Positions 33,608 through 46,736 of a stretch of 46,736 nt of DNA are shown here, piece after piece; the first letter of the stretch is position 1; every line of letters begins with the position of its first letter. A program made the position numbers and the translations under genes. The notes beneath the pieces are model-generated. The model searched no databases. It was not told the origin of the DNA and was given only the letters and a program-made list of their open reading frames with translations. The DNA is from Escherichia phage BEK6. The stretch lies in sequence record MN158208.1; one strand, 5' to 3'.

Positions 33608-33802
33608 ATGAATACCATATATACTGCTAAATTCTACGAGTCGCGTAAAACTGGTTACGAGTATGAATTAGTAATTACAGGTGACGGTTATTTTCTTGAT
33701 GATGGTGAGGGATACTCATTCGAAGTTAGCCCGACCTACAAAGATGATCTGGAAGTCGTTAAAAACGCATTCGGCGAAAAATTTGATGAGGTATCAGAAT
33801 AA
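33608..33802 (+). CDS. hypothetical protein
   Basis: 64-aa ORF downstream of palindrome/TATAGT/CATCGAAACTAAAC module. Confidence 0.4.
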   Translation: MNTIYTAKFYESRKTGYEYELVITGDGYFLDDGEGYSFEVSPTYKDDLEVVKNAFGEKFDEVSE

Positions 33803-34023: not shown

Positions 34024-34148
34024 TGAAAATTGTAGACAAAGAGATGTTTGAAATTGCGCAATCTTACGCAAATGACGCATTTAACACTGGCTCAGAATAT
34101 TGCTGGATGTGTGCTAAAGAATACCTAAAAATGGCTTACGGCTTATGA
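34023..34148 (+). CDS. hypothetical small protein
   Basis: 41-codon ORF (below track cutoff) with TAATG and ATGA overlaps to its neighbours. Confidence 0.3.
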   Translation: MKIVDKEMFEIAQSYANDAFNTGSEYCWMCAKEYLKMAYGL

Positions 34149-34393
34149 TAGTTGAAACAGGACGCGCCGCAGTGTGGGCGCATTGTGGAGAGGCGGGATT
34201 GCAAGATGATATTAAACAGATATCTCGCTTCTTTGACATAAAAGATATAAGCGTTGTTTTCAATGGTAAATTCTCTTACATGGATGATCGACCAAGAAAA
34301 TACGTAAGAGTTAAACCAGGTGTCAGGATTGATGTTAATGAGTTCCTCAAAGCTGAGGGATACAAGTTTAAGATAACGAAGCCTAAGGATTGA
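34145..34393 (+). CDS. hypothetical protein
   Basis: 82-aa ORF translationally coupled to neighbours. Confidence 0.4.
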   Translation: MIVETGRAAVWAHCGEAGLQDDIKQISRFFDIKDISVVFNGKFSYMDDRPRKYVRVKPGVRIDVNEFLKAEGYKFKITKPKD

Positions 34394-34395
34394 GT

Positions 34396-34647
34396 ATGTT
34401 GGGTTTGGATTTTCAGCCAGAGCATTACGATTTAGTGTATGGACAAAGTGGAAATAAGTTTAGGGCGATACCTATTTCTGACTGGTTTCCTCCAGATTAT
34501 GTGGATGTGAACGCAAAAACTAAAGACGGAAAGTGGGTGCAGATTTACTACTCTCCAGCATGCGGAAAACTTTGCATGACTGACCTTGGCCAGAAGTTAA
34601 CAATTAGTGATGATTTGATTGACTACTGGTTAAAAGAAGTTGAATGA
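34396..34647 (+). CDS. hypothetical protein
   Basis: ATG 34396 with AAGGA RBS (track opens at TTG 34390). Confidence 0.4.
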   Translation: MLGLDFQPEHYDLVYGQSGNKFRAIPISDWFPPDYVDVNAKTKDGKWVQIYYSPACGKLCMTDLGQKLTISDDLIDYWLKEVE

Positions 34648-34730
34648 GAGCTCTAACACTAGTAGCATTAGTCCCACTGTTTAGCTTTACTATCTTATAC
34701 TTTATCGTAATGAATTAAGGAACTTATATA

Positions 34731-35861: not shown

Positions 35862-35879
35862 ATAGCACTTTTTGCCTAA
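35860..35879 (+). promoter_or_regulatory. degenerate palindrome copy (AAATAGCACTTTTTGCCTAA)
   Basis: Overlaps stop of the phosphoesterase gene; hairpin TGCCGtagaaatGCGGCA and CATAAT at 35900-35905. Confidence 0.4.
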
Positions 35880-35935
35880 CCTATGCCGTAGAAATGCGGC
35901 ATAATTGCCATATCAAAACAAACGAGGATTCAATC

Positions 35936-36109
35936 ATGGTTAAATTATTTTGCATTAAGAACACATCCAAGACACTGCCATTTGCAGTCAATCAGCCGTA
36001 CAATGCAGAGTACCGTGGTGACGGATATTACAAGATTTACGGCGACGATATGACGCACATCTTAGCGCCGATTGATGGTTCGTTGGTTGAATTTATTATC
36101 GCTGACTAG
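35936..36109 (+). CDS. hypothetical protein
   Basis: 57-aa ORF with AGGA RBS after a degenerate palindrome module; the longer track ORF 35774 overlaps the upstream gene. Confidence 0.4.
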   Translation: MVKLFCIKNTSKTLPFAVNQPYNAEYRGDGYYKIYGDDMTHILAPIDGSLVEFIIAD

Positions 36110-36135
36110 CGCAGCAAAAACATAGCGTTACGAAC

Positions 36136-36161
36136 GGGGAGCCTTTTGGCTCCCTTTTTTT
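36136..36161 (+). terminator. rho-independent terminator before the lysis cassette
   Basis: GGGGAGCC-tttt-GGCTCCC followed by TTTTTTT. Confidence 0.65.
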
Positions 36162-36239
36162 ATGCTTCTTTTCCGAGCGGTGCTAATGTATCATTATTTT
36201 ATTAACTTAAACATTGACAAATACATAAAGGTGGATCAC

Positions 36240-36455
36240 ATGAGGGAAGTAATCAACGCCGCTACGGCATCAACCGGCGGGGCTGCGGTAACTGGCGCAG
36301 CAACTGGTCAAATGACTATAGCAATAATCAGCCTTATCGCTCTAATCATTTTTGGAGCCTGGGGTGCTTACTGGAAGTATAAGGATAGCCAGGCTATTCG
36401 CAGAGCGCTTGAATCGGGAGACTTGAAGGCAGCAATCAATATAAGGAGTAAATAA
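36240..36455 (+). CDS. holin (pinholin-like)
   Basis: 71 aa; Gly/Ala-rich first hydrophobic segment then strongly hydrophobic TMD (MTIAIISLIALIIFGAWGAYW), charged C-terminus; AAGGTGG RBS; immediately upstream of the endolysin. Confidence 0.5.
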   Translation: MREVINAATASTGGAAVTGAATGQMTIAIISLIALIIFGAWGAYWKYKDSQAIRRALESGDLKAAINIRSK

Positions 36456-36941
36456 ATGAAGCAGAAGCTGCTAATTAGCGCGGCTACGGCTGCGGCGATA
36501 TACATCGCAGCGCCGCTTATTGAGCTCGTTGAGGGTGTGGAGAATAAGCCTTACATGGACATTGCCGGAATCCCTACAGTTTGTTCCGGTATTACCGGTC
36601 CAGATGTGGTCTGGGGTAAAGCGTACAGCAACAGGGAGTGCCGTAACCTGCTGGAGAAACACATCCAGATTCATGCCAAGTATGTTCAGGATGCGGTTAC
36701 CTACCCAATCGCACCGCAGACAAGGGCAGCGTTAATTAGCTTTAGCTACAATGTTGGTGGTTCTGCCATGAGGAAATCTACTGCCGTTAAGTTAATTAAC
36801 CAGGGTAAGATTGAGCAAGGTTGTAAGGCTTTGGGTCTTTGGAATAAAGTTACCGTTAATGGCAAAAAGGTTGTCGTTAAGGGGTTAGTGAATCGCAGGA
36901 ATGAGGAGATTAAGTTATGCTTAAGCGGATTGCAGCGTTAG
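36456..36941 (+). CDS. SAR endolysin (T4-lysozyme-like muramidase)
   Basis: N-terminal weakly hydrophobic signal-anchor-release-like segment (LLISAATAAAIYIAAPLI) followed by E-x8-D-x5-T catalytic pattern (ELVEGVENKPYMDIAGIPTVCSGIT). Confidence 0.75.
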   Translation: MKQKLLISAATAAAIYIAAPLIELVEGVENKPYMDIAGIPTVCSGITGPDVVWGKAYSNRECRNLLEKHIQIHAKYVQDAVTYPIAPQTRAALISFSYNVGGSAMRKSTAVKLINQGKIEQGCKALGLWNKVTVNGKKVVVKGLVNRRNEEIKLCLSGLQR

Positions 36942-37306
36942 TAATGTGCGTAGCTTTATCTGGATGTTCGGCAACATCTGCTCTGACTGGTTTAATTGGC
37001 AGTAAGCCAGAGATTAGCGCTCAAGCTGGTGCAGAGAACAATAAGGTTGGTGTCGGGTTAACGAACAAGGTTGACTCCAGTAACTCCAGCGATGCTTCCG
37101 TTAAGGATTCTAGCGTAGGCTCTCTGGATAGCTCGAGCGGAAAAAAGACTGCTGACAACTCGATTAAGGCCTCAACAATCACTGCCGAAAAGATTGAAAT
37201 TACCAATAACGAATCATCAGCGCTTCCGTGGGTTGGAACGGGAGCTATGGGTGTGCTGGTTTTAATTCTCATGGCATTAATCTTAAGACGTAAAAAAGCC
37301 TCCTAA
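36917..37306 (+). CDS. unimolecular spanin (T1 gp11-like)
   Basis: N-terminal lipoprotein signal with LSGC lipobox plus C-terminal transmembrane helix (GAMGVLVLILMALIL) and basic tail; overlaps the endolysin 3' end. Confidence 0.65.
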   Translation: MLKRIAALVMCVALSGCSATSALTGLIGSKPEISAQAGAENNKVGVGLTNKVDSSNSSDASVKDSSVGSLDSSSGKKTADNSIKASTITAEKIEITNNESSALPWVGTGAMGVLVLILMALILRRKKAS

Positions 37307-37320
37307 TGGAGGCTATTTCT
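37292..37320. terminator. bidirectional terminator between spanin (+) and minus-strand gene
   Basis: AGCCTCC-taat-GGAGGCT with A-run upstream and T-rich downstream; spanin stop codon lies in the loop. Confidence 0.55.
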
Positions 37321-37501
37321 ATTGCTTGATCCTAACTTCAACATCAATATCAGACATTAGGGCGAACAACTGAGCTTTTCCATTTACTCGAATGGTCAGA
37401 ATGTTCTCTTTTACGTTATTCTCCATGACCAGACGGAACTTTCCAGCAAACTTAACCATCATGCCTTTTTTAACTTGGCTCATCTTCATAGTCTTATCCA
37501 T
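37319..37501 (-). CDS. hypothetical protein
   Basis: 60-aa ORF downstream (minus strand) of a palindrome/TATAGT/CATCGAAAAC module; bidirectional terminator 37292-37320. Confidence 0.4.
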   Translation of the reverse strand: MDKTMKMSQVKKGMMVKFAGKFRLVMENNVKENILTIRVNGKAQLFALMSDIDVEVRIKQ

Positions 37502-37558
37502 TTTAAAATCCTCTTTGTTTTCGATGAAGTAACTATACTATTTTTGTTTTTTCTTTTA

Positions 37559-37579
37559 TTTAACAATTCGTGCTATTAG
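37559..37579 (-). promoter_or_regulatory. palindrome copy (TAATAGCACGAATTGTTAAA on minus strand)
   Basis: Overlaps stop of micro-ORF 37576-37653; minus-strand TATAGT about 22-23 bp downstream, CATCGAAAAC leader before ATG 37501. Confidence 0.45.
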
Positions 37580-37653
37580 TACACGCCAAGATAAAGAGCT
37601 ACGTTATCAATGATTGCAACAGCAGTCAGCATACCAGCGAAGAACTTAACCAT
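37576..37653 (-). CDS. hypothetical hydrophobic micro-protein
   Basis: 25-codon ORF (MVKFFAGMLTAVAIIDNVALYLGVY) preceded by its own palindrome/-10-like/CCATCGAAACGATAGAC leader; below the ORF-track cutoff. Confidence 0.3.
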   Translation of the reverse strand: MVKFFAGMLTAVAIIDNVALYLGVY

Positions 37654-37716
37654 TTTATTTTCCTTTCATGTCTATCGTTTCGATGGATTAAATATAACAA
37701 TTAACCCACAAGATGT

Positions 37717-37736
37717 TTTAACAAAAAGTGCTATTT
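37717..37736 (-). promoter_or_regulatory. palindrome copy (AAATAGCACTTTTTGTTAAA on minus strand)
   Basis: Overlaps stop of gene 37735-38037; TATATT and CCATCGAAACGATAGAC leader before the micro-ORF. Confidence 0.45.
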
Positions 37737-38037
37737 ACTTGGATTCACTTCTCGCTATGTATTCGCGTATTGTTTTCGCCGTTTCGATTGCCGACCCGAA
37801 GTCACCGTGAACATGACGGCTGTCTCGGCAATCCTGGTAGAATTTTCTTGCCACATTTGAAAACATAGCTCCAGTTACTCTAGCATCACCAAGTTTTGTT
37901 TCTATCTCGTAACTAATGCCGTCCCGAAACTCATTACCACTCATAAACATTTTTGCTATTTCAGCGGTTTCGAAAAGGTCTGCAAGTTTTGATAAATTTT
38001 CATGGTCATCTTTGGTAAAGAGGTTAATGTTAATCAT
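37735..38037 (-). CDS. hypothetical protein
   Basis: 100-aa ORF preceded by a palindrome module containing terminator hairpin AGCCCATTATGGGCT. Confidence 0.4.
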   Translation of the reverse strand: MININLFTKDDHENLSKLADLFETAEIAKMFMSGNEFRDGISYEIETKLGDARVTGAMFSNVARKFYQDCRDSRHVHGDFGSAIETAKTIREYIARSESK

Positions 38038-38099
38038 CTTATTTTCCTTTGTTAATCTCGTTTCGATGAATTAATAATAACAAAAGCCCATAATGGGCT

Positions 38100-38119
38100 T
38101 TTAACAAAAAGTGCTATTT
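38100..38119 (-). promoter_or_regulatory. palindrome copy (AAATAGCACTTTTTGTTAAA on minus strand)
   Basis: Overlaps stop of gene 38118-38453; followed by terminator hairpin AGCCCATTATGGGCT and CATCGAAACGAG leader. Confidence 0.45.
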
Positions 38120-38453
38120 AAGAAAAAAGATCGTCATCCGTCATGTTGCATATGTTCATCATATCCTTAATATATTTACTTTCATAACCGTTAAGTGCCT
38201 CGAAGCTGAAATTAAATGGCCTCCTCAGGCTACCCTTGCTAACAAACTTACCGCACTTACCATCAATGTATCCAGCACTCAACATCTTTGCGCAGAACTC
38301 CTTTGAAGCAGCGCTGCAAAACTCTCTATGCGATAACCCTGCCGCCTTGCTAAATCTCTTAGAATCCTTATGTTGGTAGATGAATCGCGCCAAATGCTGG
38401 CGCGTGAAAAAGCTATAAGATTCGCAAAAACGATACATATCCAAAATGAACAC
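38118..38453 (-). CDS. hypothetical protein
   Basis: 111-aa ORF immediately downstream of the 527-aa gene (GTG start in track; internal ATG 38438 possible). Confidence 0.4.
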   Translation of the reverse strand: MFILDMYRFCESYSFFTRQHLARFIYQHKDSKRFSKAAGLSHREFCSAASKEFCAKMLSAGYIDGKCGKFVSKGSLRRPFNFSFEALNGYESKYIKDMMNICNMTDDDLFS

Positions 38454-38456
38454 TTA

Positions 38457-40040
38457 TCACCCCAGCAGTCGTGGATTAATGTAAACTTTATCACCAATCA
38501 GGCACGTGTAGTTTTTCTCATCAAGCATTGGCAGCAAGTGGTCTTTAATCTTCGTCATTACTCCCGCTTGAGCCTCGAACGGCTTAACCTTGCGAGCCGC
38601 TTCATATAGCGAACGAATACCTACTACTCCTTTCCCGTTTTTGCCTTGCTTAATCAGGATATCAATCAGCTTATTCATCTCTGCATTGTCGCCAGCGTGA
38701 CCCGCGGCGTTAGCGGATGACAGATAAGTTTTGCTCAACTCCTGGAACATAATTACAGCTTCCTGCATTGTATCAAGCTCAATTTCTCTCGACTTCTGAG
38801 GGCTACCGCCATTTGGGTTGAACCAGTTACGCACAGTGTGAAGGACAGCCGCAATCCTTATTGCCTGCTTATCAAACTTACCAAGCGCGCCGCGCAACAT
38901 TGTGTGTGAATACTTGCCGCCGTCCGCAAGGTGAGGTTCCATTTCCTGACGCGCACGGTTGAGATACTTCATTGCTGAGTTACTAACCGTTAGTTTTACA
39001 TCCTGCTCATTCATGATTTCATGAACAAGACGGAAGTAATCAGCCTTCAACCCTGCATCAATTGGTTCATAAGTCGATTCGCCATTTTCATCAACGAATA
39101 CACGCTCGCCCAGGAATGACTTTTCACGTACAAGCAGGAAACGCTCAGATACACCGATACCACGCGCGCCAGCGTTCATGATAGCGTTGATTGTCTCATC
39201 CTGCGCAATTACAGAGATGCAACCCATAGCGACGAAGCTCATGTTGTTTTCAGCGTTAGCACGAGCGATAGATACGTTGCCAGCATCCCATGCCTTCAGT
39301 ACCAGTTCGCTGTTCGTTTTCTTTGATCCGTCACCATAGGTCATGCCAAGTAGTGAGTTTACACTCGTTGCCTCATCCGAGATTACTGCAAAGTTACCCT
39401 GACGATTGTTTATTCGCGCAAGACCTTCCGGTGTGGTATCTGAAACCGGGAAAACGATATCGCATAGTTTCTCGAGTTTTTCCTCCAACTCCTCTTTCTC
39501 CTCGAAAAGAGAAGCCATCTCTGACGGGGATTTTTCCTGCTTCATCTCTTTGGATAACGCAGATAGTTTAGCCATAATCTTTTTGCGCTCACGCTTTCGC
39601 ACTTCATTCAGTCGAGCAGTTTCAGCAATCATCGGAGCAATTGAAAGTGAGTTGATTGCTGATTTACCAGTCGATGGTGGCTGGCTTGTTACAACATAAA
39701 GCGAAGTCGGTTGCTGCGTTCCGTGATACTCAACAGTAAAACGGCCTAGCATCGCAGCGGAAATACACCCAAGGAAGTGCATGTAAGCTGAAGACTCGGG
39801 GAACTGAACTGAGCGAGCAATATTAGCTGACAGTTTACCAACAACATCAATGTCATTGCCGAGTGAGATCACGGGATACTTGTCATTAGCCGCATCAATC
39901 TCCACCGGTGCTTTCCAGAATGATTGAGACTGGCGATAGCCATTGGCATTAATAGCGACGCGCAGGGGTGGGAGGTTGTCTGCGGCAGCAATTGCCATAA
40001 CCTGTTCAACAGATAGTTTATCTTCGTTGAAATCAAACAT
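38457..40040 (-). CDS. P-loop NTPase-like protein (Walker A/B-like motifs), function unknown
   Basis: 527 aa; Walker A-like QPPSTGKS and Walker B-like FAVISDEAT in the central region; N- and C-terminal segments shared with the 175-aa ORF at 42714-43241. Confidence 0.5.
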   Translation of the reverse strand: MFDFNEDKLSVEQVMAIAAADNLPPLRVAINANGYRQSQSFWKAPVEIDAANDKYPVISLGNDIDVVGKLSANIARSVQFPESSAYMHFLGCISAAMLGRFTVEYHGTQQPTSLYVVTSQPPSTGKSAINSLSIAPMIAETARLNEVRKRERKKIMAKLSALSKEMKQEKSPSEMASLFEEKEELEEKLEKLCDIVFPVSDTTPEGLARINNRQGNFAVISDEATSVNSLLGMTYGDGSKKTNSELVLKAWDAGNVSIARANAENNMSFVAMGCISVIAQDETINAIMNAGARGIGVSERFLLVREKSFLGERVFVDENGESTYEPIDAGLKADYFRLVHEIMNEQDVKLTVSNSAMKYLNRARQEMEPHLADGGKYSHTMLRGALGKFDKQAIRIAAVLHTVRNWFNPNGGSPQKSREIELDTMQEAVIMFQELSKTYLSSANAAGHAGDNAEMNKLIDILIKQGKNGKGVVGIRSLYEAARKVKPFEAQAGVMTKIKDHLLPMLDEKNYTCLIGDKVYINPRLLG

Positions 40041-40097
40041 TACTTCTCTCCGTATTGTTTCTGAGCGGCCATTATATCAACGACCGCTTATAATTCA

Positions 40098-40117
40098 TTA
40101 TCAATTTGTGCTATTAG
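40098..40117 (-). promoter_or_regulatory. palindrome copy (CTAATAGCACAAATTGATAA on minus strand) upstream of the 527-aa gene
   Basis: Minus-strand TATAAT (forward 40071-40076) exactly 22 bp after TTGATA; overlaps the 3' end of micro-ORF 40114-40230. Confidence 0.45.
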
Positions 40118-40230
40118 TTGTTCTTAATCCACTTTAGACACATCCACAATCCAGCTCCATAGAATGCAATCTTAATAACTTCAACTAAGACAAGGATAAT
40201 AAGGTATCCACCACCAAGTAAATCAATCAT
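40114..40230 (-). CDS. hypothetical hydrophobic micro-protein
   Basis: 38-aa ORF (MIDLLGGGYLIILVLVEVIKIAFYGAGLWMCLKWIKNN) with ATGA overlap to the upstream gene; predicted single TM helix. Confidence 0.3.
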   Translation of the reverse strand: MIDLLGGGYLIILVLVEVIKIAFYGAGLWMCLKWIKNN

Positions 40231-40466
40231 TTTTTAATCTCCATTTCCACAACTTCATAACTTATGTAATTATTTATCATTCCAATAAGTGATTTTGGGT
40301 ATGTTTTCATATGCTTCTTGGCTGAATCTTCATCAAGATGCGCTGATATGTTGTGAAAATTGTATTCATAATCCATGCCCATTAGTATGTATATCTTATC
40401 GTGCGCATTAATGAAGTTATTTGATTTTAATCCCCCAATAGACCAGCCTTTTCCTTTTCTAATCAT
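40227..40466 (-). CDS. hypothetical protein
   Basis: 79-aa ORF starting at ATG 40466 (ATGA overlap with upstream stop); track ORF extends to 40499. Confidence 0.4.
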   Translation of the reverse strand: MIRKGKGWSIGGLKSNNFINAHDKIYILMGMDYEYNFHNISAHLDEDSAKKHMKTYPKSLIGMINNYISYEVVEMEIKK

Positions 40467-40816
40467 TTGTATTGAGCCTCGAAATGGTAAGTCTGGCAAA
40501 GAGTGTAAAATCCAACATCCTCGCTACGGTAGAGCTGCCAGGCATTACCATCTTCGTCGTAAATGTATCCGGCATTTTGCCCAAGGCCTGCATGCATGGA
40601 TACCTGGTAACGTTTCTCTTCTTTAAAGTCTTTTTTAACTCCGGATTTGTGGTTAACTTTCGTGCAATACAGAGTTTTGGTCTTGATATACTTACCGCGC
40701 TCTTCCAGGTTAACCCATTTCCCATCTTTCTTGATTTGTTCTACACCATCTTTAACGCGAGCTTTGTATAGTACGTTTTCGTTGCTAATCCAGTTTTTGG
40801 TAATCGTAGTAGTCAT
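40463..40816 (-). CDS. hypothetical lysine-rich protein
   Basis: 117-aa ORF starting at ATG 40816, downstream of palindrome/TATATT/CTCATCGAAACGAAAC module; track start 40861 would include the leader. Confidence 0.45.
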   Translation of the reverse strand: MTTTITKNWISNENVLYKARVKDGVEQIKKDGKWVNLEERGKYIKTKTLYCTKVNHKSGVKKDFKEEKRYQVSMHAGLGQNAGYIYDEDGNAWQLYRSEDVGFYTLCQTYHFEAQYK

Positions 40817-40878
40817 TTCTTTTGCCCTTCGTTGTTTCGTTTCGATGAGGTTAATATACATGAAAAGCCCCGAAGGAC

Positions 40879-40898
40879 TTTAGCAATTAGTGCTATTT
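40879..40898 (-). promoter_or_regulatory. gene-boundary palindrome copy (AAATAGCACTAATTGCTAAA on minus strand)
   Basis: Encodes the C-terminus/stop of ORF 40880-41041; minus-strand TATATT (forward 40853-40858) 22 bp downstream; CTCATCGAAACGAAAC leader. Confidence 0.5.
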
Positions 40899-41041
40899 CG
40901 TGCTTTTTCTATCGCCTTGAGCATAATTTCATGGCTCTCTAGCAAGTCCTCGCGAAACCAATCGCCGCAAGGCCAGCCCTTACCAGACATCTTTGACACA
41001 ACTTCAAAATCCCAATAACTCAAATCTGAAGGTAATAGCAT
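40880..41041 (-). CDS. hypothetical small protein
   Basis: 53-aa ORF, ATGA-type overlap with upstream gene; C-terminal residues NSTNC and stop codon are encoded by the palindrome itself. Confidence 0.3.
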   Translation of the reverse strand: MLLPSDLSYWDFEVVSKMSGKGWPCGDWFREDLLESHEIMLKAIEKARNSTNC

Positions 41042-41280
41042 CATTTCACCTCATCAAAAGTTGCAATCCCAGGAATAAACATCCCAACCTTCCAGCCAGC
41101 AATCGCAATCCAGCCAGAATCGTGCTTGTGCGGTCGCTCAGCGCCATTAATCAACCACTCGTTCGGGATTGTCTTCCCGTTAATGATTAGCGGCTCAGCT
41201 TCGTATACAGAGCCTTTTACGAATGGTGTTAATACTTTCTTGTCGGTGCTGGTGATACAGTTAGTGCAGCGAATTTTCAT
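41041..41280 (-). CDS. hypothetical protein
   Basis: 79-aa ORF with GAGG RBS, second gene of the minus operon from 41470. Confidence 0.4.
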   Translation of the reverse strand: MKIRCTNCITSTDKKVLTPFVKGSVYEAEPLIINGKTIPNEWLINGAERPHKHDSGWIAIAGWKVGMFIPGIATFDEVK

Positions 41281-41290
41281 ATCTCAATCC

Positions 41291-41470
41291 TCAAATAAAT
41301 GGTAGGCATTCGGCGCATCCAAGTCCATCACAGCACAGGAATTCATCCTCTGACTGGAATTGCTTAGCCAAGTCGATGTCCAGCTTTCCGCGCAACACAA
41401 GTTCTGTGTAATCTTCATTAAGCCCAATCAGTGCGCATTCGTGACGTAATTCATCTTTATCAATCTTCAT
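41291..41470 (-). CDS. hypothetical Cys-rich small protein
   Basis: 59-aa ORF (ends ...CCDGLGCAECLPFI) with GGGGAG RBS, preceded by palindrome/TATAGT/CTCATCAACAACGG module; below the track cutoff. Confidence 0.35.
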   Translation of the reverse strand: MKIDKDELRHECALIGLNEDYTELVLRGKLDIDLAKQFQSEDEFLCCDGLGCAECLPFI

Positions 41471-41524
41471 ACCAATCTCCCCGTTGTTGATGAGCTAACT
41501 ATAGCCTGGCCATCCACACATGTC

Positions 41525-41544
41525 TTTAGCAAAAAGTGCTATTC
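41525..41544 (-). promoter_or_regulatory. palindrome copy (AATAGCACTTTTTGCTAAA on minus strand)
   Basis: Minus-strand TATAGT (forward 41498-41503) about 23 bp downstream; first gene of the minus operon starts at 41470. Confidence 0.45.
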
Positions 41545-41827
41545 GTCAGATTTATGGATTGTTGCAGATATTGCAATGATTCACATGACTATTGCACATA
41601 CAGCAATATTGCTTCAGATGCAATGATGTTTTTGATTGTTGCGAAAAGTGAAATGAAGTGGGGAGTGAGTGAATGAAAGATTGATGGACTGCCATACAAG
41701 TTGACTTTACCACTCGATGAGCACCTCACGGATATACGCGTATCCTAAGTATACTCAGTGTCGTCACAAAAGTTAGTGACCACTAACCTACGTTTTTACG
41801 CGAGATATACACACGATATACAATATA

Positions 41828-41896
41828 ATATCTATATATATCAACCTTTTACTTTATTATTATTATTATTATTATATATATGTATACTGTGTATAC
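41828..41896. repeat. AT-rich repeat element with (TTA)n tract, copy B
   Basis: ATATCTATATATATCAACCTTTTACTTTATTATTATTATTATTATTATATATATGTATACTGTGTATACC; same orientation as copy A. Confidence 0.7.
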
Positions 41897-42102
41897 CGAT
41901 CATTGGTGAGATAGTTGATATGTTCCGCGCAGATATTCTGACACTTGTAGGAAAGGGATGACATTGTAGGAATGGATAGGCATGCATGGGGCCTGGTGGG
42001 TAAAAAAAGTGTATACACGGCGTACGCGCAATATACATATAGAGATGATGCGGTGCTAGAGGCAGATTTGCGTATTAGGTGAAAAATATACAAAGAAATA
42101 CT

Positions 42103-42131
42103 TTGACTAACGCGTAAATCTGATGCAATAT
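42103..42131 (+). promoter_or_regulatory. candidate sigma70-type promoter for the 42172 gene cluster
   Basis: TTGACT (42103-42108), 17-bp spacer, CAATAT (42126-42131). Confidence 0.35.
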
Positions 42132-42171
42132 ACCAATCAATGAAACGCAGTACACAACAACGAGGTGACAT

Positions 42172-42714
42172 ATGAATGAAGTAACGCTTGGTGAAGTAAT
42201 CAGGAATATGGTAAGTAAAGCCATGGAGTCCAGCAGTGGTGAGTTTAAGGTTCCTGTAAGGGAAATATTCAAGGTGCTTAGAGGTCGGGATTATCCTGAG
42301 CTCAGGTATGATGTTGAAACTGATGAGATCATCAACCTTAAGGAGCGGTCGATTCCAGAATTGAAGAACTCATACATTTATAATACGGTATCAAGGATGC
42401 CGCAGTTAAGAGCTGCAGGAAAGCATGCTAAGCACAAGATAATCTGGATTGATGATGATGGTGAGCAGACGAGCGCAAAGCAATTCGACGGTGACGGTGC
42501 AGATAAGTATCTTGTAATCCAGATCTGCGATGGTGAACATAAGAAGAGCGAGAGCGCCAGGAGGAAGAGAGATAGCGATGCTGCTGTTATTGAGTCATTC
42601 AAGTCAAGATTAATGAAGGTAGTACCGAGCGTTATGGACTTAGATGGTGAGCAGAAGGTTGGCGCAGAGATTGCTATCGGTAGATTTTATGATTTGATTA
42701 AGGATGCTAAATAA
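42172..42714 (+). CDS. hypothetical protein
   Basis: 180-aa ORF, first plus-strand gene after the 41.5-42.2 kb control region; candidate TTGACT-17-CAATAT promoter upstream. Confidence 0.45.
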   Translation: MNEVTLGEVIRNMVSKAMESSSGEFKVPVREIFKVLRGRDYPELRYDVETDEIINLKERSIPELKNSYIYNTVSRMPQLRAAGKHAKHKIIWIDDDGEQTSAKQFDGDGADKYLVIQICDGEHKKSESARRKRDSDAAVIESFKSRLMKVVPSVMDLDGEQKVGAEIAIGRFYDLIKDAK

Positions 42715-43241
42715 TGTTTGATTTCAACGAAGACAAATTGACTGATGAACAGATTATGAGCATTGCGAAGCAGGATGGAATTCCACCGCTACGGATTGCA
42801 ATCAATGCAAATGGTTATAGGCATGTTCAGCACCTCTGGGGCCAGCCTGACGCATCGGAAGTCTACAGAGATGAAGCGCTGGGAGTTATGATTAAGTTGA
42901 TCAGGAAAATGGCAAGGAACGGCAAGGGCGTGCTTGGCATCAGGTCTTTATACGATGGCGCTCGCAGGGGGAAAAGAATTAATGGTGGCAATGCCGTGCT
43001 GATGGCTCGCATTAAGGATGAGCTCATCCCCGCTCTAGAGGAAATGAATCTCGTTTGCCTAATTGGAGATAAGATTTATGTTCATCCGGCTATCATTGAT
43101 GAGTATTGGCAACCAAACTTCAAAACTTACGAAGGTGAGCACGCTAGTAGACCACCATACCACTTGCGGTACAGCGAGGAAGAGGTGGAGGTGGCGATTG
43201 AGTTCTACCGGAAAGCTAAATCACTCCTGAATGGTGAATAG
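42714..43241 (+). CDS. truncated paralog of the 527-aa NTPase-like protein (N- and C-terminal segments only)
   Basis: Starts MFDFNEDKLTDEQIMSIA...PPLRIAINANGYR and contains NGKGVLGIRSLYDGAR...IKDELIPALEEMNLVCLIGDKIYVHP, matching both ends of the minus-strand 527-aa protein; first 20 nt identical. Confidence 0.5.
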   Translation: MFDFNEDKLTDEQIMSIAKQDGIPPLRIAINANGYRHVQHLWGQPDASEVYRDEALGVMIKLIRKMARNGKGVLGIRSLYDGARRGKRINGGNAVLMARIKDELIPALEEMNLVCLIGDKIYVHPAIIDEYWQPNFKTYEGEHASRPPYHLRYSEEEVEVAIEFYRKAKSLLNGE

Positions 43242-43255
43242 CACGAATTGTTAAA
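43236..43255 (+). promoter_or_regulatory. gene-boundary palindrome copy (GAATAGCACGAATTGTTAAA)
   Basis: Contains the TAG stop of the 175-aa paralog; TATAAT at 43276-43281 (22-bp spacing). Confidence 0.5.
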
Positions 43256-43311
43256 AGGGGATTCATCCTGACTGGTATAATCCCCACATCAACCAAACGA
43301 AAGGAATTTGA

Positions 43312-43443
43312 TTGACCATATACGAACATAAATTCAGTAGCAGGGGCATTGATATGCTCCTGCACTATGTAGACGAAAAATACGCAAATCACATGCTTAA
43401 GACGCATGGCGGAACAATGACGAGGGTTAACATAAATGTCTAA
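43312..43443 (+). CDS. hypothetical small protein (TTG start)
   Basis: 43-aa ORF after palindrome/TATAAT module with AAAGGAA RBS; 3' end overlaps the kinase start; speculative. Confidence 0.25.
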   Translation: MTIYEHKFSSRGIDMLLHYVDEKYANHMLKTHGGTMTRVNINV

Positions 43444-44053
43444 AGTCATCATTCTCAACGGTCCGGCTGGTGTAGGCAAAGACACGATCGGCAACGCTCT
43501 TGCGAAAGATTACAACTGCATCCCGACGAGCTTTAAGCGCCCTATGTTTGAGATCGCAGCTTCAATCCTTGGCCCTCGGGCGTTCAGCAAATTCATCACC
43601 GCTTATCACGACCGCGATCAGAAAGAGATTCCTTATGGATTCCTTGGTGGCAAGACCTGCCGCGAGTTCATGATTTGGATTGGCGAGTCGGTGGTCAAGC
43701 CGCTATTTGGCAACCAGCAATTCGCAAAGCTGATGAGCGAACATATCCGGATTTGTGACGAAGGCTCATGTTTTGTTTGCACTGATGGCGGTTTCCCTGA
43801 TGAGGTTATTCAGCTAGTGGAAGATGGTCACGACGTTACCGTTGTGCGCCTGTTTATGGATGGCAAAACCTTCGCAGGCGATAGTCGTAATTACATCCGC
43901 ATCAAGGAATCTCACTTCCCTGATTATAAAAAGTATCAGGAGCACAGCATTCACCTGGTTAATGGCGACATTGAAGGTGGTGTTTTGGCGGTGGTTCTTG
44001 CCTGCGGCCTGCAACCTCAGATTGACGAATGGGCGGACGATATTCCCTGGTAA
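43436..44053 (+). CDS. P-loop nucleotide/nucleoside kinase-like protein
   Basis: N-terminal Walker A IILNGPAGVGKDT; ~200 aa, typical small-kinase size. Confidence 0.6.
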   Translation: MSKVIILNGPAGVGKDTIGNALAKDYNCIPTSFKRPMFEIAASILGPRAFSKFITAYHDRDQKEIPYGFLGGKTCREFMIWIGESVVKPLFGNQQFAKLMSEHIRICDEGSCFVCTDGGFPDEVIQLVEDGHDVTVVRLFMDGKTFAGDSRNYIRIKESHFPDYKKYQEHSIHLVNGDIEGGVLAVVLACGLQPQIDEWADDIPW

Positions 44054-44071
44054 ATAGCACGAATTGCTAAA
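44052..44071 (+). promoter_or_regulatory. gene-boundary palindrome copy AAATAGCACGAATTGCTAAA
   Basis: Abuts the kinase stop; hairpin CCCGCtcctGCGGG plus T-run, then TATAGT at 44092-44097 (22-bp spacing). Confidence 0.5.
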
Positions 44072-44126
44072 CCCGCTCCTGCGGGTTTTGTTATAGTTAG
44101 TTCACACCAAGAGATAGGTAGTAAAA

Positions 44127-44219
44127 ATGAAGCAATATCCATCAAGCAATCACCATAACGGTCACGTCATGCAGTTCTATCGCCACAACCTGAAGACTAA
44201 GGGAGTATTTGGAAAATGA
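44127..44219 (+). CDS. hypothetical micro-protein
   Basis: 30-aa His-rich ORF ([30 protein letters not shown]) between the palindrome module and the next gene, ATGA overlap downstream; speculative. Confidence 0.25.
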
Positions 44220-44434
44220 TTACAATTAACCTGTCAGAGAAAGACGCAGCAATGCTTAAGTCCATGCTGTCAATCTTTGAGAAGCCAAATGAACGAGCAA
44301 TTTCAAAAGAGGTGATTGCTCAGTTCAACAATCAGCAGTTCGACGTAAGTGACTTCGAGTCATCACGTCAGTACGAGGCGCTTAGCGTCAATGCGGCATA
44401 CCTGACTAACTGGGATAAGGCGACAAAGAAATGA
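44216..44434 (+). CDS. hypothetical protein
   Basis: 72-aa ORF, translationally coupled to neighbours. Confidence 0.4.
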
Positions 44435-44616
44435 TTTACGTTCACACGTACTACACAGGCAAGTTTAATAGCGTTAAGCATGTTCGGGTTTATGATACCT
44501 TCCTTAAGGCCAGTAAGCAGATGGATGTTTTAGGTGGCACAATCAAGGCTTGTGAAGTAATTAAAGAATACAAATTAGGGTATTACTATGAAGCGCGGAT
44601 GGGTGTTGGTGGTTAA
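44431..44616 (+). CDS. hypothetical protein
   Basis: 61-aa ORF with ATGA overlap. Confidence 0.4.
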   Translation: MIYVHTYYTGKFNSVKHVRVYDTFLKASKQMDVLGGTIKACEVIKEYKLGYYYEARMGVGG

Positions 44617-44716
44617 CGGAAAAGTTATAGGTTATTTCGAAACAGAGGATGCAGCATGGTTGTATTGCGCAACCCACTGCGTTGGTGAGTTTAAATGCGA
44701 GTCAATAGAAGTAACT

Positions 44717-44735
44717 AATAGCACTAATTGCTAAA
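44717..44735 (+). promoter_or_regulatory. gene-boundary palindrome copy (AATAGCACTAATTGCTAAA)
   Basis: TATAGT at 44756-44761 (22-bp spacing) within GGGGTA...TACCCC hairpin; CATCGAAACGAAC leader. Confidence 0.5.
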
Positions 44736-44791
44736 ACAGTATTGGGGTAATTTGATATAGTTACCCCATCGAAACGAACGAGGAAGCGGAA

Positions 44792-44971
44792 ATGAAATTT
44801 CAACAGGGCGAGCCCAAGCTACAAGCTAACCACTTCGATGGCTACACAACATTCATCATCGCCCAGGCGTGCGGTATGCGAGATGAGCCTCAGGTTCACA
44901 CCATTCACTTGACCGAGGAGCAAGCTCGAGAGATGGCGTATGAAATTATTGAGCAATTGAATAAGATTTAA
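44792..44971 (+). CDS. hypothetical protein
   Basis: 59-aa ORF downstream of palindrome (44717-44735) / TATAGT (44756-44761) / CCCCATCGAAACGAACGAGG leader; below track cutoff. Confidence 0.35.
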   Translation: MKFQQGEPKLQANHFDGYTTFIIAQACGMRDEPQVHTIHLTEEQAREMAYEIIEQLNKI

Positions 44972-45020
44972 CGCGCCTAAAACGCATTCTAGCAAACTAT
45001 AATTTAAGTAAGGTGATTCT

Positions 45021-45182
45021 ATGATTAAGGTTGTCTATGTAGGTGAGAGTGATTATGTGGCGCTAATTCAGCGTGGTGATGTGTTTTTCGCAGAGATGAG
45101 TGATGATGGTAGTTGCTACATCGTAAAGAACAAGAATGGCGAAGATATCTACCTTTCAGAAGATGATGTTATAATTTACTAA
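45021..45182 (+). CDS. hypothetical small protein
   Basis: 53-aa ORF with AAGGTGA RBS; first of three overlapping small ORFs. Confidence 0.3.
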   Translation: MIKVVYVGESDYVALIQRGDVFFAEMSDDGSCYIVKNKNGEDIYLSEDDVIIY

Positions 45183-45307
45183 TGGATAACTACGAATCAC
45201 CAAGCCAGTGGTGTAAGAGAATGCAGGATGAAGCTATAAAGGTCGAAGAGGCGATAGCTTATTACGAGCTGGCTAAAATGTGGATGGAACGGGAGAAGAA
45301 AGAATGA
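45182..45307 (+). CDS. hypothetical small protein
   Basis: 41-aa ORF, TAATG overlap upstream and ATGA overlap downstream. Confidence 0.3.
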   Translation: MDNYESPSQWCKRMQDEAIKVEEAIAYYELAKMWMEREKKE

Positions 45308-45447
45308 GCTTCACTGAATATGTGATCGCATGTGAACGACTCGTCTTCGATATGAAGACTTTCCACTGGTTCATCATTAAGGATTTAATTAAGCCTTACA
45401 AGCGTGGTGTAACACCTGAGGCTTTTGTTAATTCATTCTATAAATAG
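45304..45447 (+). CDS. hypothetical small protein
   Basis: 47-aa ORF whose TAG stop lies inside the palindrome copy at 45442-45461. Confidence 0.3.
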   Translation: MSFTEYVIACERLVFDMKTFHWFIIKDLIKPYKRGVTPEAFVNSFYK

Positions 45448-45461
45448 CACGAATTGCTAAA
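45442..45461 (+). promoter_or_regulatory. gene-boundary palindrome copy AAATAGCACGAATTGCTAAA
   Basis: Contains the TAG stop of ORF 45304-45447; hairpin GCCATgtATGGC; TACAAT at 45482-45487 (22-bp spacing). Confidence 0.5.
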
Positions 45462-45517
45462 CGCAGCCGCCATGTATGGCATACAATCACCACATCAACA
45501 CAACGAGAGATTGAGAA

Positions 45518-45706
45518 ATGAGTTATTCAAAGATTTATGTAGTTTATGGGTATAATATAGGTGACGAAGATTCTATAAGCGTCATCGCATTCCCTAAAAG
45601 GTGTGAAGCTGAGTCATTCGTAAATTCAATGAAATGTAATGATAAGAGAGCATTTGATGAATACGATTTCGAAGAGATTGATTTTGCTGATACAACGAGA
45701 GATTGA
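45518..45706 (+). CDS. hypothetical protein
   Basis: 62-aa ORF downstream of palindrome/TACAAT module; leader ACAACGAGAGATTGAGAAATG. Confidence 0.4.
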   Translation: MSYSKIYVVYGYNIGDEDSISVIAFPKRCEAESFVNSMKCNDKRAFDEYDFEEIDFADTTRD

Positions 45707-45709
45707 GAA

Positions 45710-45949
45710 ATGTTCGGACTAAATGAAGCGATGTTTAACGCGGTAAAGCGCCAGGCTAAAAAGCTCAACGATAAGTATGAGTCACTAAGCAAGCTGGACC
45801 GCAAGAATGATAAGTTGGTTGCTGGTATCATCACTGAGATTTGGCAGCCTGTTTCTACAGTTATCAGTAGGGATCGATTTGTGTGGGTAGCTGGTTACTT
45901 GCGTGGACGAGTGGGTCATGACGAGAATGGGAATAGTCTTTATGAGTGA
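45710..45949 (+). CDS. hypothetical protein
   Basis: 79-aa ORF whose start context duplicates the leader of the preceding gene. Confidence 0.4.
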   Translation: MFGLNEAMFNAVKRQAKKLNDKYESLSKLDRKNDKLVAGIITEIWQPVSTVISRDRFVWVAGYLRGRVGHDENGNSLYE

Positions 45950-46028
45950 GCTAACAATCTGGTTTGTCGCAGGGCTTATTACTTGGGCTTACTTTTTAAT
46001 CTTTTAGGTGTGGGTTGTTAAAAATAGC

Positions 46029-46057
46029 TTGCATCACTGAACGGAATTATCTAACAT
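46029..46057 (+). promoter_or_regulatory. candidate sigma70-type promoter upstream of the tRNA region
   Basis: TTGCAT (46029-46034), 17-bp spacer, TAACAT (46052-46057). Confidence 0.3.
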
Positions 46058-46223
46058 TAACCACGTAGACAAACGAGGCCACCAAGTGGCAACGGCGCAC
46101 GGAGCGCAACTACTAAGTCCGTTGCTAATTAAGTAGCGTATGCGGCATTAAGACCTAGCGCAAATAGGCAGATTAACCGGCTGTATCAGGCAGCCCCGGA
46201 GCCGTAACCGGGACTCATTCAAA

Positions 46224-46301
46224 GCTCTGTTAGCTCAATTGGATAGCAGCAACGACCTTCTAAGTCGTAGGTTACTGGTTCGAATCCAGTGCGGAGCGCC
46301 A
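46224..46301 (+). tRNA. tRNA-Arg (anticodon UCU), with encoded 3' CCA
   Basis: Hand-folded cloverleaf: acceptor GCTCTGT/GCGGAGC, anticodon stem ACGAC/GTCGT with loop CTTCTAA (anticodon TCT), T-arm ACTGG-TTCGAAT-CCAGT, discriminator G then CCA; resembles enterobacterial argU-type tRNA. Confidence 0.75.
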
Positions 46302-46308
46302 AATCAAA

Positions 46309-46410
46309 CGTCGCGTTGCTAATGCTGGCCAAAGGGTGGAGCTTATACCTCCATAAAGCAATCTCCAGATAAGAGATGTAACGCAGGTTCGATTCCTGCC
46401 GCGACGACCA
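46309..46410 (+). ncRNA. tRNA-like element (non-canonical length; possibly a class II tRNA or degenerate tRNA)
   Basis: Perfect 7-bp acceptor pairing CGTCGCG/CGCGACG, canonical T-arm GCAGG-TTCGATT-CCTGC, discriminator A and CCA, D-loop-like GGCCAAAGGG, but ~99 nt with two candidate anticodon hairpins. Confidence 0.3.
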
Positions 46411-46425
46411 AAAAAGGAGTTCATT

Positions 46426-46608
46426 ATGTGGGATGTGAAGTTGTCCATTCGCTTAATGGGCCGCTCGTGCAAGAATTGCACTCAAGATTATATCGCGTCA
46501 GTTGCCGCAATCAGCGCTGAGGATGCGGTAGAGAAAGTAAAAGAGATGTCAGGCGCTGACCCTGATACTCACAAATTCCTCGTCTGCTACGTTCGCAAGC
46601 AAGACTGA
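46426..46608 (+). CDS. hypothetical protein
   Basis: 60-aa ORF with AAAAAGGAG RBS, followed by strong terminator 46670-46694. Confidence 0.45.
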   Translation: MWDVKLSIRLMGRSCKNCTQDYIASVAAISAEDAVEKVKEMSGADPDTHKFLVCYVRKQD

Positions 46609-46669
46609 CGCCGAATGGCTAGAAAAAAGTGTTATACCCTCGTTAAGTTTCGTTTCTCTCGTTGTTTTT

Positions 46670-46694
46670 AGCCCTCGCTTGAGGGCTTTTTTTC
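46670..46694 (+). terminator. rho-independent terminator
   Basis: AGCCCTC-gctt-GAGGGCT followed by TTTTTTT. Confidence 0.65.
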
Positions 46695-46704
46695 GTCTGC
46701 AATA

Positions 46705-46713
46705 TGGTATAAT
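46705..46713 (+). promoter_or_regulatory. extended -10 promoter element (TGgTATAAT) at the window end
   Basis: TGGTATAAT followed by AAAGGGGG RBS running off the window; would drive the ORF at position 1 if the genome is circularly permuted. Confidence 0.4.
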
Positions 46714-46736
46714 CTGACCTCAACAAAGGGGGATTT

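What the first reader, a model, noticed from the sequence alone, without database searches (positions are those of the whole stretch)
46666..46736. Window appears to be a complete circularly permuted genome opened at the first gene
Position 1 is exactly the ATG of the first ORF, and the window ends with a terminator, an extended -10 (TGgTATAAT) and a purine-rich RBS-like AAAGGGGGATTT that would sit 4 nt upstream of that ATG if the ends were joined. No gene is truncated at either edge.
Basis: inference. Interest (0 to 1): 0.35.

Follow-up and report, generated by a model that had tools for sequence, protein, structure and literature searches.

The report
Phage genome record opened at terminase gene
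The window is one complete copy of a T1/Rtp-like coliphage genome that was assembled as a circle and then cut, by a common database convention, at the first base of its small-terminase gene, so the "split" promoter and ribosome-binding site are ordinary.

Summary
Position 1 is the ATG of the small terminase gene terS. The last 70 bases hold an intrinsic terminator, an extended -10 promoter (TGGTATAAT) and a Shine-Dalgarno sequence. No gene is cut at either edge and nothing is duplicated at the ends. When the ends are joined, the sequence matches internal regions of relatives whose records open elsewhere. It matches base for base with no indel at the junction in 6 of 7 relatives. A reciprocal test with the circular genome vB_Ec-G8 closes both circles. 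Published methods such as the BASEL collection state that circular contigs are re-linearised at the first base of terS, so the opening point is curation, not biology. The terminase is 52% (TerS) and 57% (TerL) identical to that of phage T1, which packages DNA by the pac-initiated headful mechanism. Virion DNA is therefore expected to be terminally redundant and partly permuted. This is inferred from relatives and not shown for this phage. Read-based ends published for two close relatives (MSK, SU57) map to window 41692-41710. That places the probable first packaging cut about 5 kb upstream of terS, not at the window junction.

The parts
1..46736 (+). One complete unit-length genome of a Drexlerviridae (Braunvirinae, Rtp/T1-like) coliphage, linearised at terS
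   Evidence: It is colinear end to end with BEK2/BEK3 and BEK1-1 at 88-91% identity. The reciprocal circle closure with vB_Ec-G8 holds.
1..507 (+). terS, the small terminase subunit (168 aa, P22 gp3 type)
   Evidence: Pfam GP3_package. PDB 3p9a at E=3e-15. 52% identical to T1 TerS.
526..675 (+). Small 49-aa ORF inserted between terS and terL
   Evidence: Translation. This stretch is extra relative to vB_Ec-G8.
677..2242 (+). terL, the large terminase subunit (521 aa). The true start is ATG 677, not the TTG at 614 given in the ORF list.
   Evidence: The N-terminus matches CEB_EC3a TerL. 57% identical to T1 TerL over the full length. Pfam Terminase_6C.
2279..3559 (+). Portal protein
   Evidence: Pfam Phage_portal_3 at E=1.5e-68.
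46224..46301 (+). tRNA-Arg (anticodon TCT)
   Evidence: ARAGORN. Rfam tRNA at 53.6 bits.
46309..46407 (+). Second tRNA-like gene, with anticodon loop CUUAUAC (UAU, Ile/AUA) and a ~25-nt extra arm
   Evidence: Rfam tRNA at 39.3 bits, above the gathering score of 29. ARAGORN missed it. The homologous site is annotated tRNA-Ile in PQ314493.
46426..46608 (+). Conserved 60-aa hypothetical gene, the last gene of the upstream operon
   Evidence: ORF list. The homologue is annotated in CEB_EC3a, SU57, G8 and ACG-M12.
46670..46693 (+). Intrinsic terminator that closes the upstream small-gene/tRNA operon
   Evidence: Scan. Fold at -12.5 kcal/mol. Compensatory stem changes in Rtp and T1. Annotated as a terminator in CEB_EC3a and T1.
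46705..46713 (+). Extended -10 promoter element TGGTATAAT for the terS/morphogenesis operon
   Evidence: All 7 relatives match TGnTATAAT and six carry TGGTATAAT itself, while ACG-M12 has TGCTATAAT. T1 has TGGTAAAAT at the same place. A BPROM promoter is annotated over the same site in SU57.
46726..46732 (+). Shine-Dalgarno sequence of terS (AAGGGGG, where relatives have AAGGAGG), 4 nt before the ATG at position 1 once the ends are joined
   Evidence: A ribosome-binding site is annotated at the same place in SU57.
41543..41710 (+). Conserved repeat block in the ~700-bp divergent non-coding region. It is the predicted pac recognition region, with the predicted first packaging cut at ~41692-41710 and packaging running rightward. 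This is an inference.
   Evidence: MSK's PhageTerm start (PMC8421802) maps to 41692. SU57's record ends map to 41709/41710 and Rtp's position 1 maps to 41602. The motifs ATTGTTGC and TGCAATGA each occur twice here and nowhere else in the window. T1's position 1 carries similar motifs.

Best explanation
The window is one complete, non-redundant copy of the genome of a virulent T1/Rtp-like coliphage (Drexlerviridae, Braunvirinae).

This phage family packages DNA by the pac-initiated headful mechanism, so virion DNA molecules are terminally redundant and partly permuted. Assemblers therefore return a circular contig. Someone then re-linearised that circle, by a widely used convention, at the first base of the small terminase gene.

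That cut separates terS from its own control region, which ends up at the far end of the record. The control region consists of three parts. An intrinsic terminator ends the upstream operon of small genes and tRNAs. It is followed at once by a sigma-70 promoter that relies on an extended -10 element and has no recognisable -35. A Shine-Dalgarno sequence then precedes the terS ATG.

In the replicating (circular or concatemeric) genome these signals sit directly in front of terS. They would drive the long rightward packaging, head and tail operon (window 1 to ~20.8 kb).

The real first packaging cut is probably not at the junction. It most likely lies about 5 kb upstream, at window ~41.69-41.71 kb, in the divergent non-coding region. 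Packaging would run rightward, so first-headful molecules would physically span the window's end-to-start junction.

Shown here: closure of the circle, gene identities, and conservation of the signals. Inferred: promoter and terminator activity, headful packaging in this particular phage, and the pac position.
For: **Closure of the circle.**
- The joined junction aligns as a single piece to internal sites of relatives, and 61 records cover at least 80% of the 1200-nt junction query.
- The base-level alignment shows no indel at the junction in 6 of 7 relatives, and Rtp differs by +1 nt.
- In the reciprocal test, G8 29317/29318 maps to window 46736/1, and G8 45511/1 maps to window 17358/17359.
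- The ends carry no duplication and no truncated gene.

**The opening point is a convention.**
- JeanPiccard, JulesPiccard, AugustePiccard, BEK2 and BEK3 also start at terS position 1.
- 43 MK9072xx records of 44,219 or 44,091 bp are opened at many different places.

**Packaging mode.**
- TerS is of the P22 gp3 type.
- TerS is 52% and TerL 57% identical to T1's.
- T1 and TLS package by pac headful with 3-4 headfuls per series (PMC11447400).
- SU57 restriction digests indicate permutation (PMC7718038).
- PhageTerm called pac headful for MSK (PMC8421802).

**Signals in front of terS.**
- The terminator was found by the scan and by folding.
- Its stem pairs 2 and 6 change on both sides in Rtp and T1.
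- All 7 relatives match TGnTATAAT, six with TGGTATAAT itself, and T1 has TGGTAAAAT.

**Not a prophage.** There was no match in 5,426 complete E. coli genomes.
Against: - No sequencing reads or virion DNA data exist for this phage, so the physical structure of its DNA is inferred from relatives only.
- The phage's own junction-spanning 30-35-mer was not found in IMG/VR or in the JGI metagenomes. The junction is therefore supported by homologues at 85-92% identity, not by an independent copy of the same genome.
- TGNTATAAT by itself is barely above chance in the window.
- The promoter has no -35 match, and the consensus scan did not call it.
- The three author-defined ends in relatives differ by up to ~110 bp (41602, 41692, 41710).
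- SU57's authors say that PhageTerm reported several possible ends.
Confidence: 0.9

Rival explanations
1. The window's ends are true physical ends. Under this reading the phage has a cos site, or a precise pac cut, immediately upstream of terS (as lambda has cos next to Nu1), and the record reproduces the virion molecule.
For: In many phages the packaging site lies in or beside terS. In P22 and Sf6, whose TerS is the structural relative, pac lies inside the terS gene. The record starts at terS.
Against: - The cut falls exactly on the A of the ATG, which is the signature of the published curation convention.
- The terminase is orthologous to T1's headful enzyme.
- Read-based ends in MSK and SU57 map ~5 kb upstream, not to terS.
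- The T1 record places its 2.8-kb terminal redundancy 8.4 kb upstream of terS.
- No P22-like pac sequence occurs in or near terS.
Confidence: 0.03
2. The phage has fixed direct terminal repeats, as T7 or T5 do. The assembler collapsed them into a circle, so the genome is not permuted at all.
For: Collapsed terminal repeats also give circular contigs. This cannot be distinguished from the window sequence alone.
Against: - Family-level experiments show submolar pac fragments and stepwise-shifted ends in T1 and TLS.
- Single-cutter enzymes gave multiple bands and a smear in SU57.
- PhageTerm called headful packaging in MSK.
- The terminase is of the P22 gp3 / T1 type.
Confidence: 0.04
3. The window is incomplete or is a fragment: a contig trimmed at terS with sequence missing at the junction, or an excised piece of a prophage or larger element.
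For: Nothing in the window alone proves closure. The exact junction was not found in public contigs.
Against: - The joined ends match relatives with zero indel at the junction.
- G8's whole circle maps onto the window with a single wrap.
- The length of 46,736 bp falls inside the 43.8-50.1 kb range of complete relatives.
- No match was found in complete E. coli genomes.
Confidence: 0.02

Closest known systems
Escherichia phages BEK1-1, BEK2 and BEK3 (MN158212, MN158206, MN158207), Braunvirinae
   Same: They are colinear with the window over the whole genome at 88-91% identity. BEK2 and BEK3 are also opened at terS position 1 and are almost the same length, 46,880 and 46,884 bp.
   Different: Identity is below 95%, so the window is a separate species-level genome. 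Only 72% of the second half of the window aligns.
Escherichia phage T1 (NC_005833), the reference for pac-initiated headful packaging in this family
   Same: The terminase is orthologous, with TerS 52% and TerL 57% identical. The same terminator, TGGTAnAAT and Shine-Dalgarno arrangement precedes terS. The genome has the same layout, with a ~700-bp divergent non-coding region that holds the record ends.
   Different: T1 belongs to a different subfamily (Tunavirinae), and there is almost no nucleotide similarity outside short intergenic boxes. The T1 record opens at the terminal-redundancy region, 8.4 kb upstream of terS, not at terS.
Escherichia phages vB_EcoD_SU57 (MT511058) and MSK (MW057918)
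   Same: Both are close relatives, about 90% identical at the junction. Both have published read-based or restriction evidence for permuted headful DNA. Their proposed ends map to window 41692-41710.
   Different: Their records are opened elsewhere, with terS at 5889 and 41065. SU57 lacks the second tRNA-like gene.
Salmonella phage P22 gp3 small terminase and its pac site
   Same: TerS belongs to the same protein family, GP3_package, and matches structure 3p9a. The packaging logic is headful.
   Different: P22's pac site lies inside gene 3. The window has no P22-like pac sequence in terS, and the relatives' ends map ~5 kb upstream of terS.

Membership tests
Drexlerviridae / Braunvirinae (Rtp/T1-like coliphages) | Whole-genome nucleotide colinearity with classified members | tested here: met
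   88-91% identity to BEK1-1, BEK2/3 and the vB_EcoS series across the structural half. Colinear with G8, SU57, CEB_EC3a (Guelphvirus) and Rtp.
Drexlerviridae / Braunvirinae (Rtp/T1-like coliphages) | Hallmark proteins orthologous to those of T1 | tested here: met
   TerS 52% and TerL 57% identical to T1 over the full length.
pac-initiated headful packaging (T1/P22 type) | Small terminase of the P22 gp3 family and a large terminase orthologous to an experimentally characterised headful enzyme | tested here: met
   Pfam GP3_package. 3p9a at E=3e-15. T1 orthology.
pac-initiated headful packaging (T1/P22 type) | Virion DNA that is terminally redundant and partly permuted, shown by a submolar pac fragment or a one-sided pile-up of read starts | not testable with these tools
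   No reads or virion DNA are available. The feature is shown only for relatives: T1 and TLS, SU57 and MSK.
pac-initiated headful packaging (T1/P22 type) | A P22-like pac sequence inside terS | tested here: not met
   The 22-mer has 0 matches at up to 3 mismatches. The 12-mer core has 10 matches against 5.9 expected, with none in terS and none in 41471-42171. This is not required for the T1 type, whose pac lies far from terS.
Intrinsic (rho-independent) terminator | G+C-rich hairpin followed directly by a run of T | tested here: met
   7-bp stem with 5 G-C pairs, a 4-nt loop and 7 T. -12.5 kcal/mol, z=-2.8.
Intrinsic (rho-independent) terminator | Structure conserved through compensatory changes | tested here: met
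   The stem is AGCCCTC/GAGGGCT in the window, AGCCCC/GGGGCT in Rtp and AACCCGC/GCGGGTT in T1. Pairs 2 and 6 change on both sides.
Intrinsic (rho-independent) terminator | Termination of transcripts in vivo | not testable with these tools
   This needs RNA 3'-end mapping.
Extended -10 sigma-70 promoter | TGnTATAAT motif at a suitable distance upstream of the gene | tested here: met
   TGGTATAAT at 46705-46713, 23 nt before the ATG after joining. It is conserved in 7 relatives and nearly so in T1.
Extended -10 sigma-70 promoter | A -35 hexamer, which is dispensable for this promoter class | tested here: not met
   At 17-nt spacing the -35 position reads GCTTTT. The consensus scan did not call the site.
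Extended -10 sigma-70 promoter | Transcription start mapped downstream of the element | not testable with these tools
   This needs 5'-end RNA mapping. The predicted start is near 46720.
Database records re-linearised at terS (curation convention) | Position 1 is the first base of the small terminase gene, and the joined ends form an uninterrupted sequence | tested here: met
   The convention is stated in PMC8594841. Five related records share the same start.

The most novel reading that the evidence does not exclude
In Rtp-like phages a P22-gp3-type small terminase may recognise a pac region that lies not in its own gene but ~5 kb upstream. The candidate is the conserved block of ATTGTTGC / TGCAATGA repeats around the palindrome AGCAATATTGCT (window ~41555-41690). 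The first cut would fall at its right edge (41692-41710), with packaging running rightward. No sequence-level pac site is agreed for this family. The TLS paper guessed at AGATTT from its similarity to P22, and the MSK paper says that neither MSK nor Rtp has the ATATA repeats predicted for T1. The convergence of two read-based ends on the edge of this conserved block would therefore give a concrete, testable pac candidate.
Probability: 0.5. Interest if true: 0.3.

Novelty: already known. Interest (0 to 1): 0.08.

Why it matters
It matters mainly for bookkeeping.

- **Annotation.** Anyone annotating or comparing this genome should treat it as circular for analysis. The terS promoter, ribosome-binding site and upstream terminator lie at the opposite end of the record from the gene they control.
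- **Physical ends.** The record's ends must not be mistaken for the virion's ends.
- **Practical lead.** The predicted pac region at ~41.6-41.7 kb is the one useful lead. It could guide terminal mapping, synthetic rebooting or engineering of this phage.

Tried and rejected
1. **Terminal duplication.** I looked for an assembly overlap or direct repeat at the two ends and found none.
2. **Junction-crossing genes.** The only candidate is a 139-aa ORF antisense to terS, which I rejected as a shadow ORF.
3. **The phage's own junction in public contigs.** A junction-spanning 35-mer in IMG/VR and a 30-mer in the JGI metagenomes both gave 0 hits.
4. **Prophage copies.** The junction has no match in 5,426 complete E. 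coli genomes.
5. **P22-like pac sequence.** None was found in terS or in the predicted pac region.
6. **Transferring T1's pac position by sequence homology.** This failed. T1 1-1400 has no nucleotide match in the window, and T1 ST77 is not detectably similar to the window's gene at 42172 (E=0.10). Only the synteny and the motif content are shared.
7. **An apparent terL frame problem.** This was resolved. A 49-aa ORF is inserted between terS and terL, and terL starts at ATG 677. My first coordinate, 678, was a counting error.
8. **The AGCAAAAAGTGCTA box at 41525-41541.** I first considered it part of pac. It turned out to be a leftward copy of the general intergenic promoter box.
9. **PDB search with TerL.** This gave no sequence-level hit.
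10. **The weak Rfam hit AaHKsRNA20 at 46622-46699.** It scored 25.5 bits against a gathering score of 43 and reflects terminator resemblance only.

Full report
**What is at the site.** Position 1 is the A of the ATG of a 168-aa ORF, 1-507. This ORF is a small terminase of the P22 gp3 family: Pfam GP3_package at E=5e-13 and PDB 3p9a at E=3e-15. It is followed by three genes:
- a small 49-aa ORF at 526-675;
- terL at 677-2242, whose true start was fixed by comparison with CEB_EC3a;
- the portal gene at 2279-3559.

The right end of the window holds, in order:
- tRNA-Arg(TCT) at 46224-46301;
- a second tRNA-like gene at 46309-46407 (Rfam tRNA 39.3 bits);
- a conserved 60-aa ORF at 46426-46608;
- an intrinsic terminator, with stem 46670-46676/46681-46687 and 7 T to 46693 (-12.5 kcal/mol, z=-2.8);
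- TGGTATAAT at 46705-46713;
- AAAGGGGG at 46725-46732, which ends 4 nt before the end of the window.

The ends carry no duplication. No open frame longer than 65 nt runs off the right edge. The only ORF crossing the joined junction is antisense to terS.

**Is the circle really closed?** I joined the last 600 and first 600 bases and searched the phage collection. 61 records cover at least 80% of this junction query in one place. Five records align to it as a single uninterrupted piece at internal coordinates, for example KY398841 4575-5681 and PQ433350 28759-29842. I then aligned the junction at base level against seven relatives whose records are opened elsewhere (CEB_EC3a, UALMA_PCEc3, vB_Ec-G8, SU57, DTL, ACG-M12, Rtp). 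Six show no insertion or deletion at the junction, and Rtp differs by one extra base.

A whole-genome comparison with vB_Ec-G8 gives a reciprocal test. G8 is deposited as circular, with terS at 29318. G8 1-29317 maps to window 17359-46736, and G8 29318-45511 maps to window 1-17358. Each record's opening point is thus bridged without a gap by the other genome. The window length of 46,736 bp lies inside the 43.8-50.1 kb range of complete relatives. The junction has no match in 5,426 complete E. coli genomes, so this is not a prophage fragment. The phage's own junction-spanning signature was not found in IMG/VR or in the JGI metagenomes. Closure therefore rests on homologues, not on a second copy of the same genome.

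**Why it starts at the ATG.** A random opening point would fall on the first base of terS once in 46,736 times, so the start was chosen. The BASEL phage collection paper states the practice directly. [quoted passage not shown] Related records JeanPiccard, JulesPiccard, AugustePiccard, BEK2 and BEK3 all start at terS position 1. By contrast, 43 MK9072xx records of 44,219 or 44,091 bp are opened at many different coordinates and on both strands. Other authors placed position 1 about 4-6 kb upstream of terS: ACG-M12 has terS at 3877, CEB_EC3a at 5157, Rtp at 5813 and SU57 at 5889.

**What the end-of-window signals are.** They form the control region of terS, separated from its gene only by the way the record was cut.

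- *Terminator.* It is annotated at the homologous place in CEB_EC3a and in T1. Its stem differs between the window (AGCCCTC/GAGGGCT), Rtp (AGCCCC/GGGGCT) and T1 (AACCCGC/GCGGGTT), with stem pairs 2 and 6 changed on both sides. That pattern is evidence for a selected structure.
- *Promoter.* All seven Braunvirinae relatives match TGnTATAAT (six have TGGTATAAT, ACG-M12 has TGCTATAAT). In T1 the stretch reads CCTGCAATATGGTAAAAT, although the surrounding sequence is otherwise unrelated. No -35 match exists, because the -35 position falls in the terminator's T-run. The consensus scan accordingly did not call the site. This is compatible with an extended -10 promoter, which does not need a -35. SU57's authors annotated a BPROM promoter and a ribosome-binding site over the same bases.
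- *Shine-Dalgarno sequence.* The window has AAGGGGG where all seven relatives have AAGGAGG.
- *Predicted leader.* The predicted transcript start near 46720 would give a leader of about 17 nt.

Promoter and terminator activity are inferred, not shown.

**Physical DNA structure.** The terminase is orthologous to that of T1, with TerS 52% and TerL 57% identical over the full length. The literature on this family is consistent:
- Digestion of SU57 DNA with single-cutter enzymes gives multiple bands and smears, which its authors read as permutation (PMC7718038).
- PhageTerm called pac headful packaging for MSK (PMC8421802).
- Niu et al. describe T1-like genomes as terminally redundant and circularly permuted (PMC4070988).

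**Where the real ends probably are.** MSK's PhageTerm start (position 36,862, forward, p=1.6e-9) corresponds to window 41692. SU57's record ends were chosen at an abrupt change in read depth. They correspond to window 41709/41710. Rtp's position 1 corresponds to 41602. All three lie in the ~700-bp divergent non-coding region 41471-42171, between the leftward and rightward early gene blocks.

T1's record begins in the syntenic region, between ST1 on the minus strand and ST77 on the plus strand, and it annotates 1-2800 as the repeat region.

The window sequence just left of these points (about 41543-41709) is conserved among the window, SU57, MSK and, from 41602 onward, Rtp. To the right of 41710 the relatives diverge. 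The conserved block contains ATTGTTGC twice, TGCAATGA twice, and the palindrome AGCAATATTGCT. Both 8-mers occur nowhere else in the window. T1's first 60 bases carry similar motifs: GTTGCA, TGCAAC, GATTGTTGC and ATGCAATGATTG.

I therefore predict that pac recognition and the first cut occur at about 41.6-41.71 kb, some 5.03 kb upstream of terS, with packaging running rightward. If so, first-headful molecules physically contain the window's end-to-start junction. I put this prediction at about 50-60% confidence. The published ends differ by up to ~110 bp, and SU57's authors note that PhageTerm reported several possible ends.

No P22-like pac sequence is present in terS or elsewhere in a meaningful place. 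T1's pac position could not be transferred by sequence homology.

**Comparison with what is known, and verdict.** Everything here belongs to known kinds:
- a Braunvirinae genome, under 95% identical to anything in the August 2025 phage collection and so probably a new species-level member;
- a standard record-opening convention;
- a terminator, promoter and Shine-Dalgarno region already annotated in relatives.

The rival readings are a true end at terS, collapsed fixed terminal repeats, and an incomplete genome or fragment. I put them at 2-4% each. The finding is correct but ordinary, and I score it low. Its only mildly new by-product is a concrete candidate for the pac region of Rtp-like phages.

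Noticed in passing
window 41471-42171 (core 41543-41710): This is a ~700-bp divergent non-coding region. It holds a conserved block of ATTGTTGC / TGCAATGA repeats and the palindrome AGCAATATTGCT. The read-based or author-chosen genome ends of MSK, SU57 and Rtp map to 41692, 41710 and 41602, which makes the block a candidate pac region about 5 kb upstream of terS.
   Followed up: partly
window 41797-41890: An AT-rich tract with many ATATA repeats and a (TAT)n microsatellite lies just right of the predicted pac cut. T1 has a comparable ATATA-rich tract at 210-300 of its record. The MSK paper says ATATA repeats were predicted for T1 and reports them absent from MSK and Rtp.
   Followed up: partly
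22 sites across the window, e.g. 15547, 25198, 33195, 33529, 43239, 44055, 44719, 45445 (+); 22067, 37559, 40879, 41525 (-): The 17-nt intergenic box TAGCACNAATTGYTAAA occurs 22 times at up to 3 mismatches (12 exact), against 1.6 expected. It is oriented with the local genes and, where I read the sequence (43239, 44055, 44719), is followed ~17 nt later by a TATAAT-like hexamer. It is probably the family of promoters reported as intergenic repeats in TLS. No copy precedes terS, whose promoter belongs to a different class.
   Followed up: partly
window 46309-46407: A second tRNA-like gene was missed by ARAGORN but scores 39.3 bits with the Rfam tRNA model. Its anticodon loop implies UAU (Ile, codon AUA), and it carries a ~25-nt extra arm that is unusual for tRNA-Ile. 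Together with tRNA-Arg(UCU), the phage would supply decoders for AGA and AUA, which are the two rarest E. coli codons (from my own knowledge, not tested here). The gene is absent from SU57, and DTL and the MK9072xx phages also appear to lack it.
   Followed up: partly
window 526-675: A 49-aa ORF is inserted between terS and terL, where several relatives (for example G8, CEB_EC3a and SU57) have only ~16-19 nt. It is preceded by a near-copy of the terS promoter core (GATGGTATAAC). Other relatives carry different inserts at this spot, namely homing or HNH endonucleases in JeanPiccard and Rtp.
   Followed up: partly
window 46728-46732: The terS Shine-Dalgarno sequence is GGGGG here but GGAGG in all seven aligned relatives. 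This is a single A-to-G change in an otherwise invariant stretch.
   Followed up: no
window 41278-44212: This early-region block has no detectable similarity to vB_Ec-G8. From 41710 to 43244 it is ~92% identical to SU57. This mosaicism starts exactly at the predicted pac cut.
   Followed up: no
relatives MG065688 (Campylobacter phage A110b) and PP134917 (Pseudomonas phage PsgS01F): Two records attributed to non-E. coli hosts are close relatives of this coliphage. PsgS01F has the same length (44,679 bp) and the same match statistics as coliphage UALMA_PCEc3. These may be mis-assigned hosts or carry-over of T1-like laboratory contaminants.
   Followed up: no
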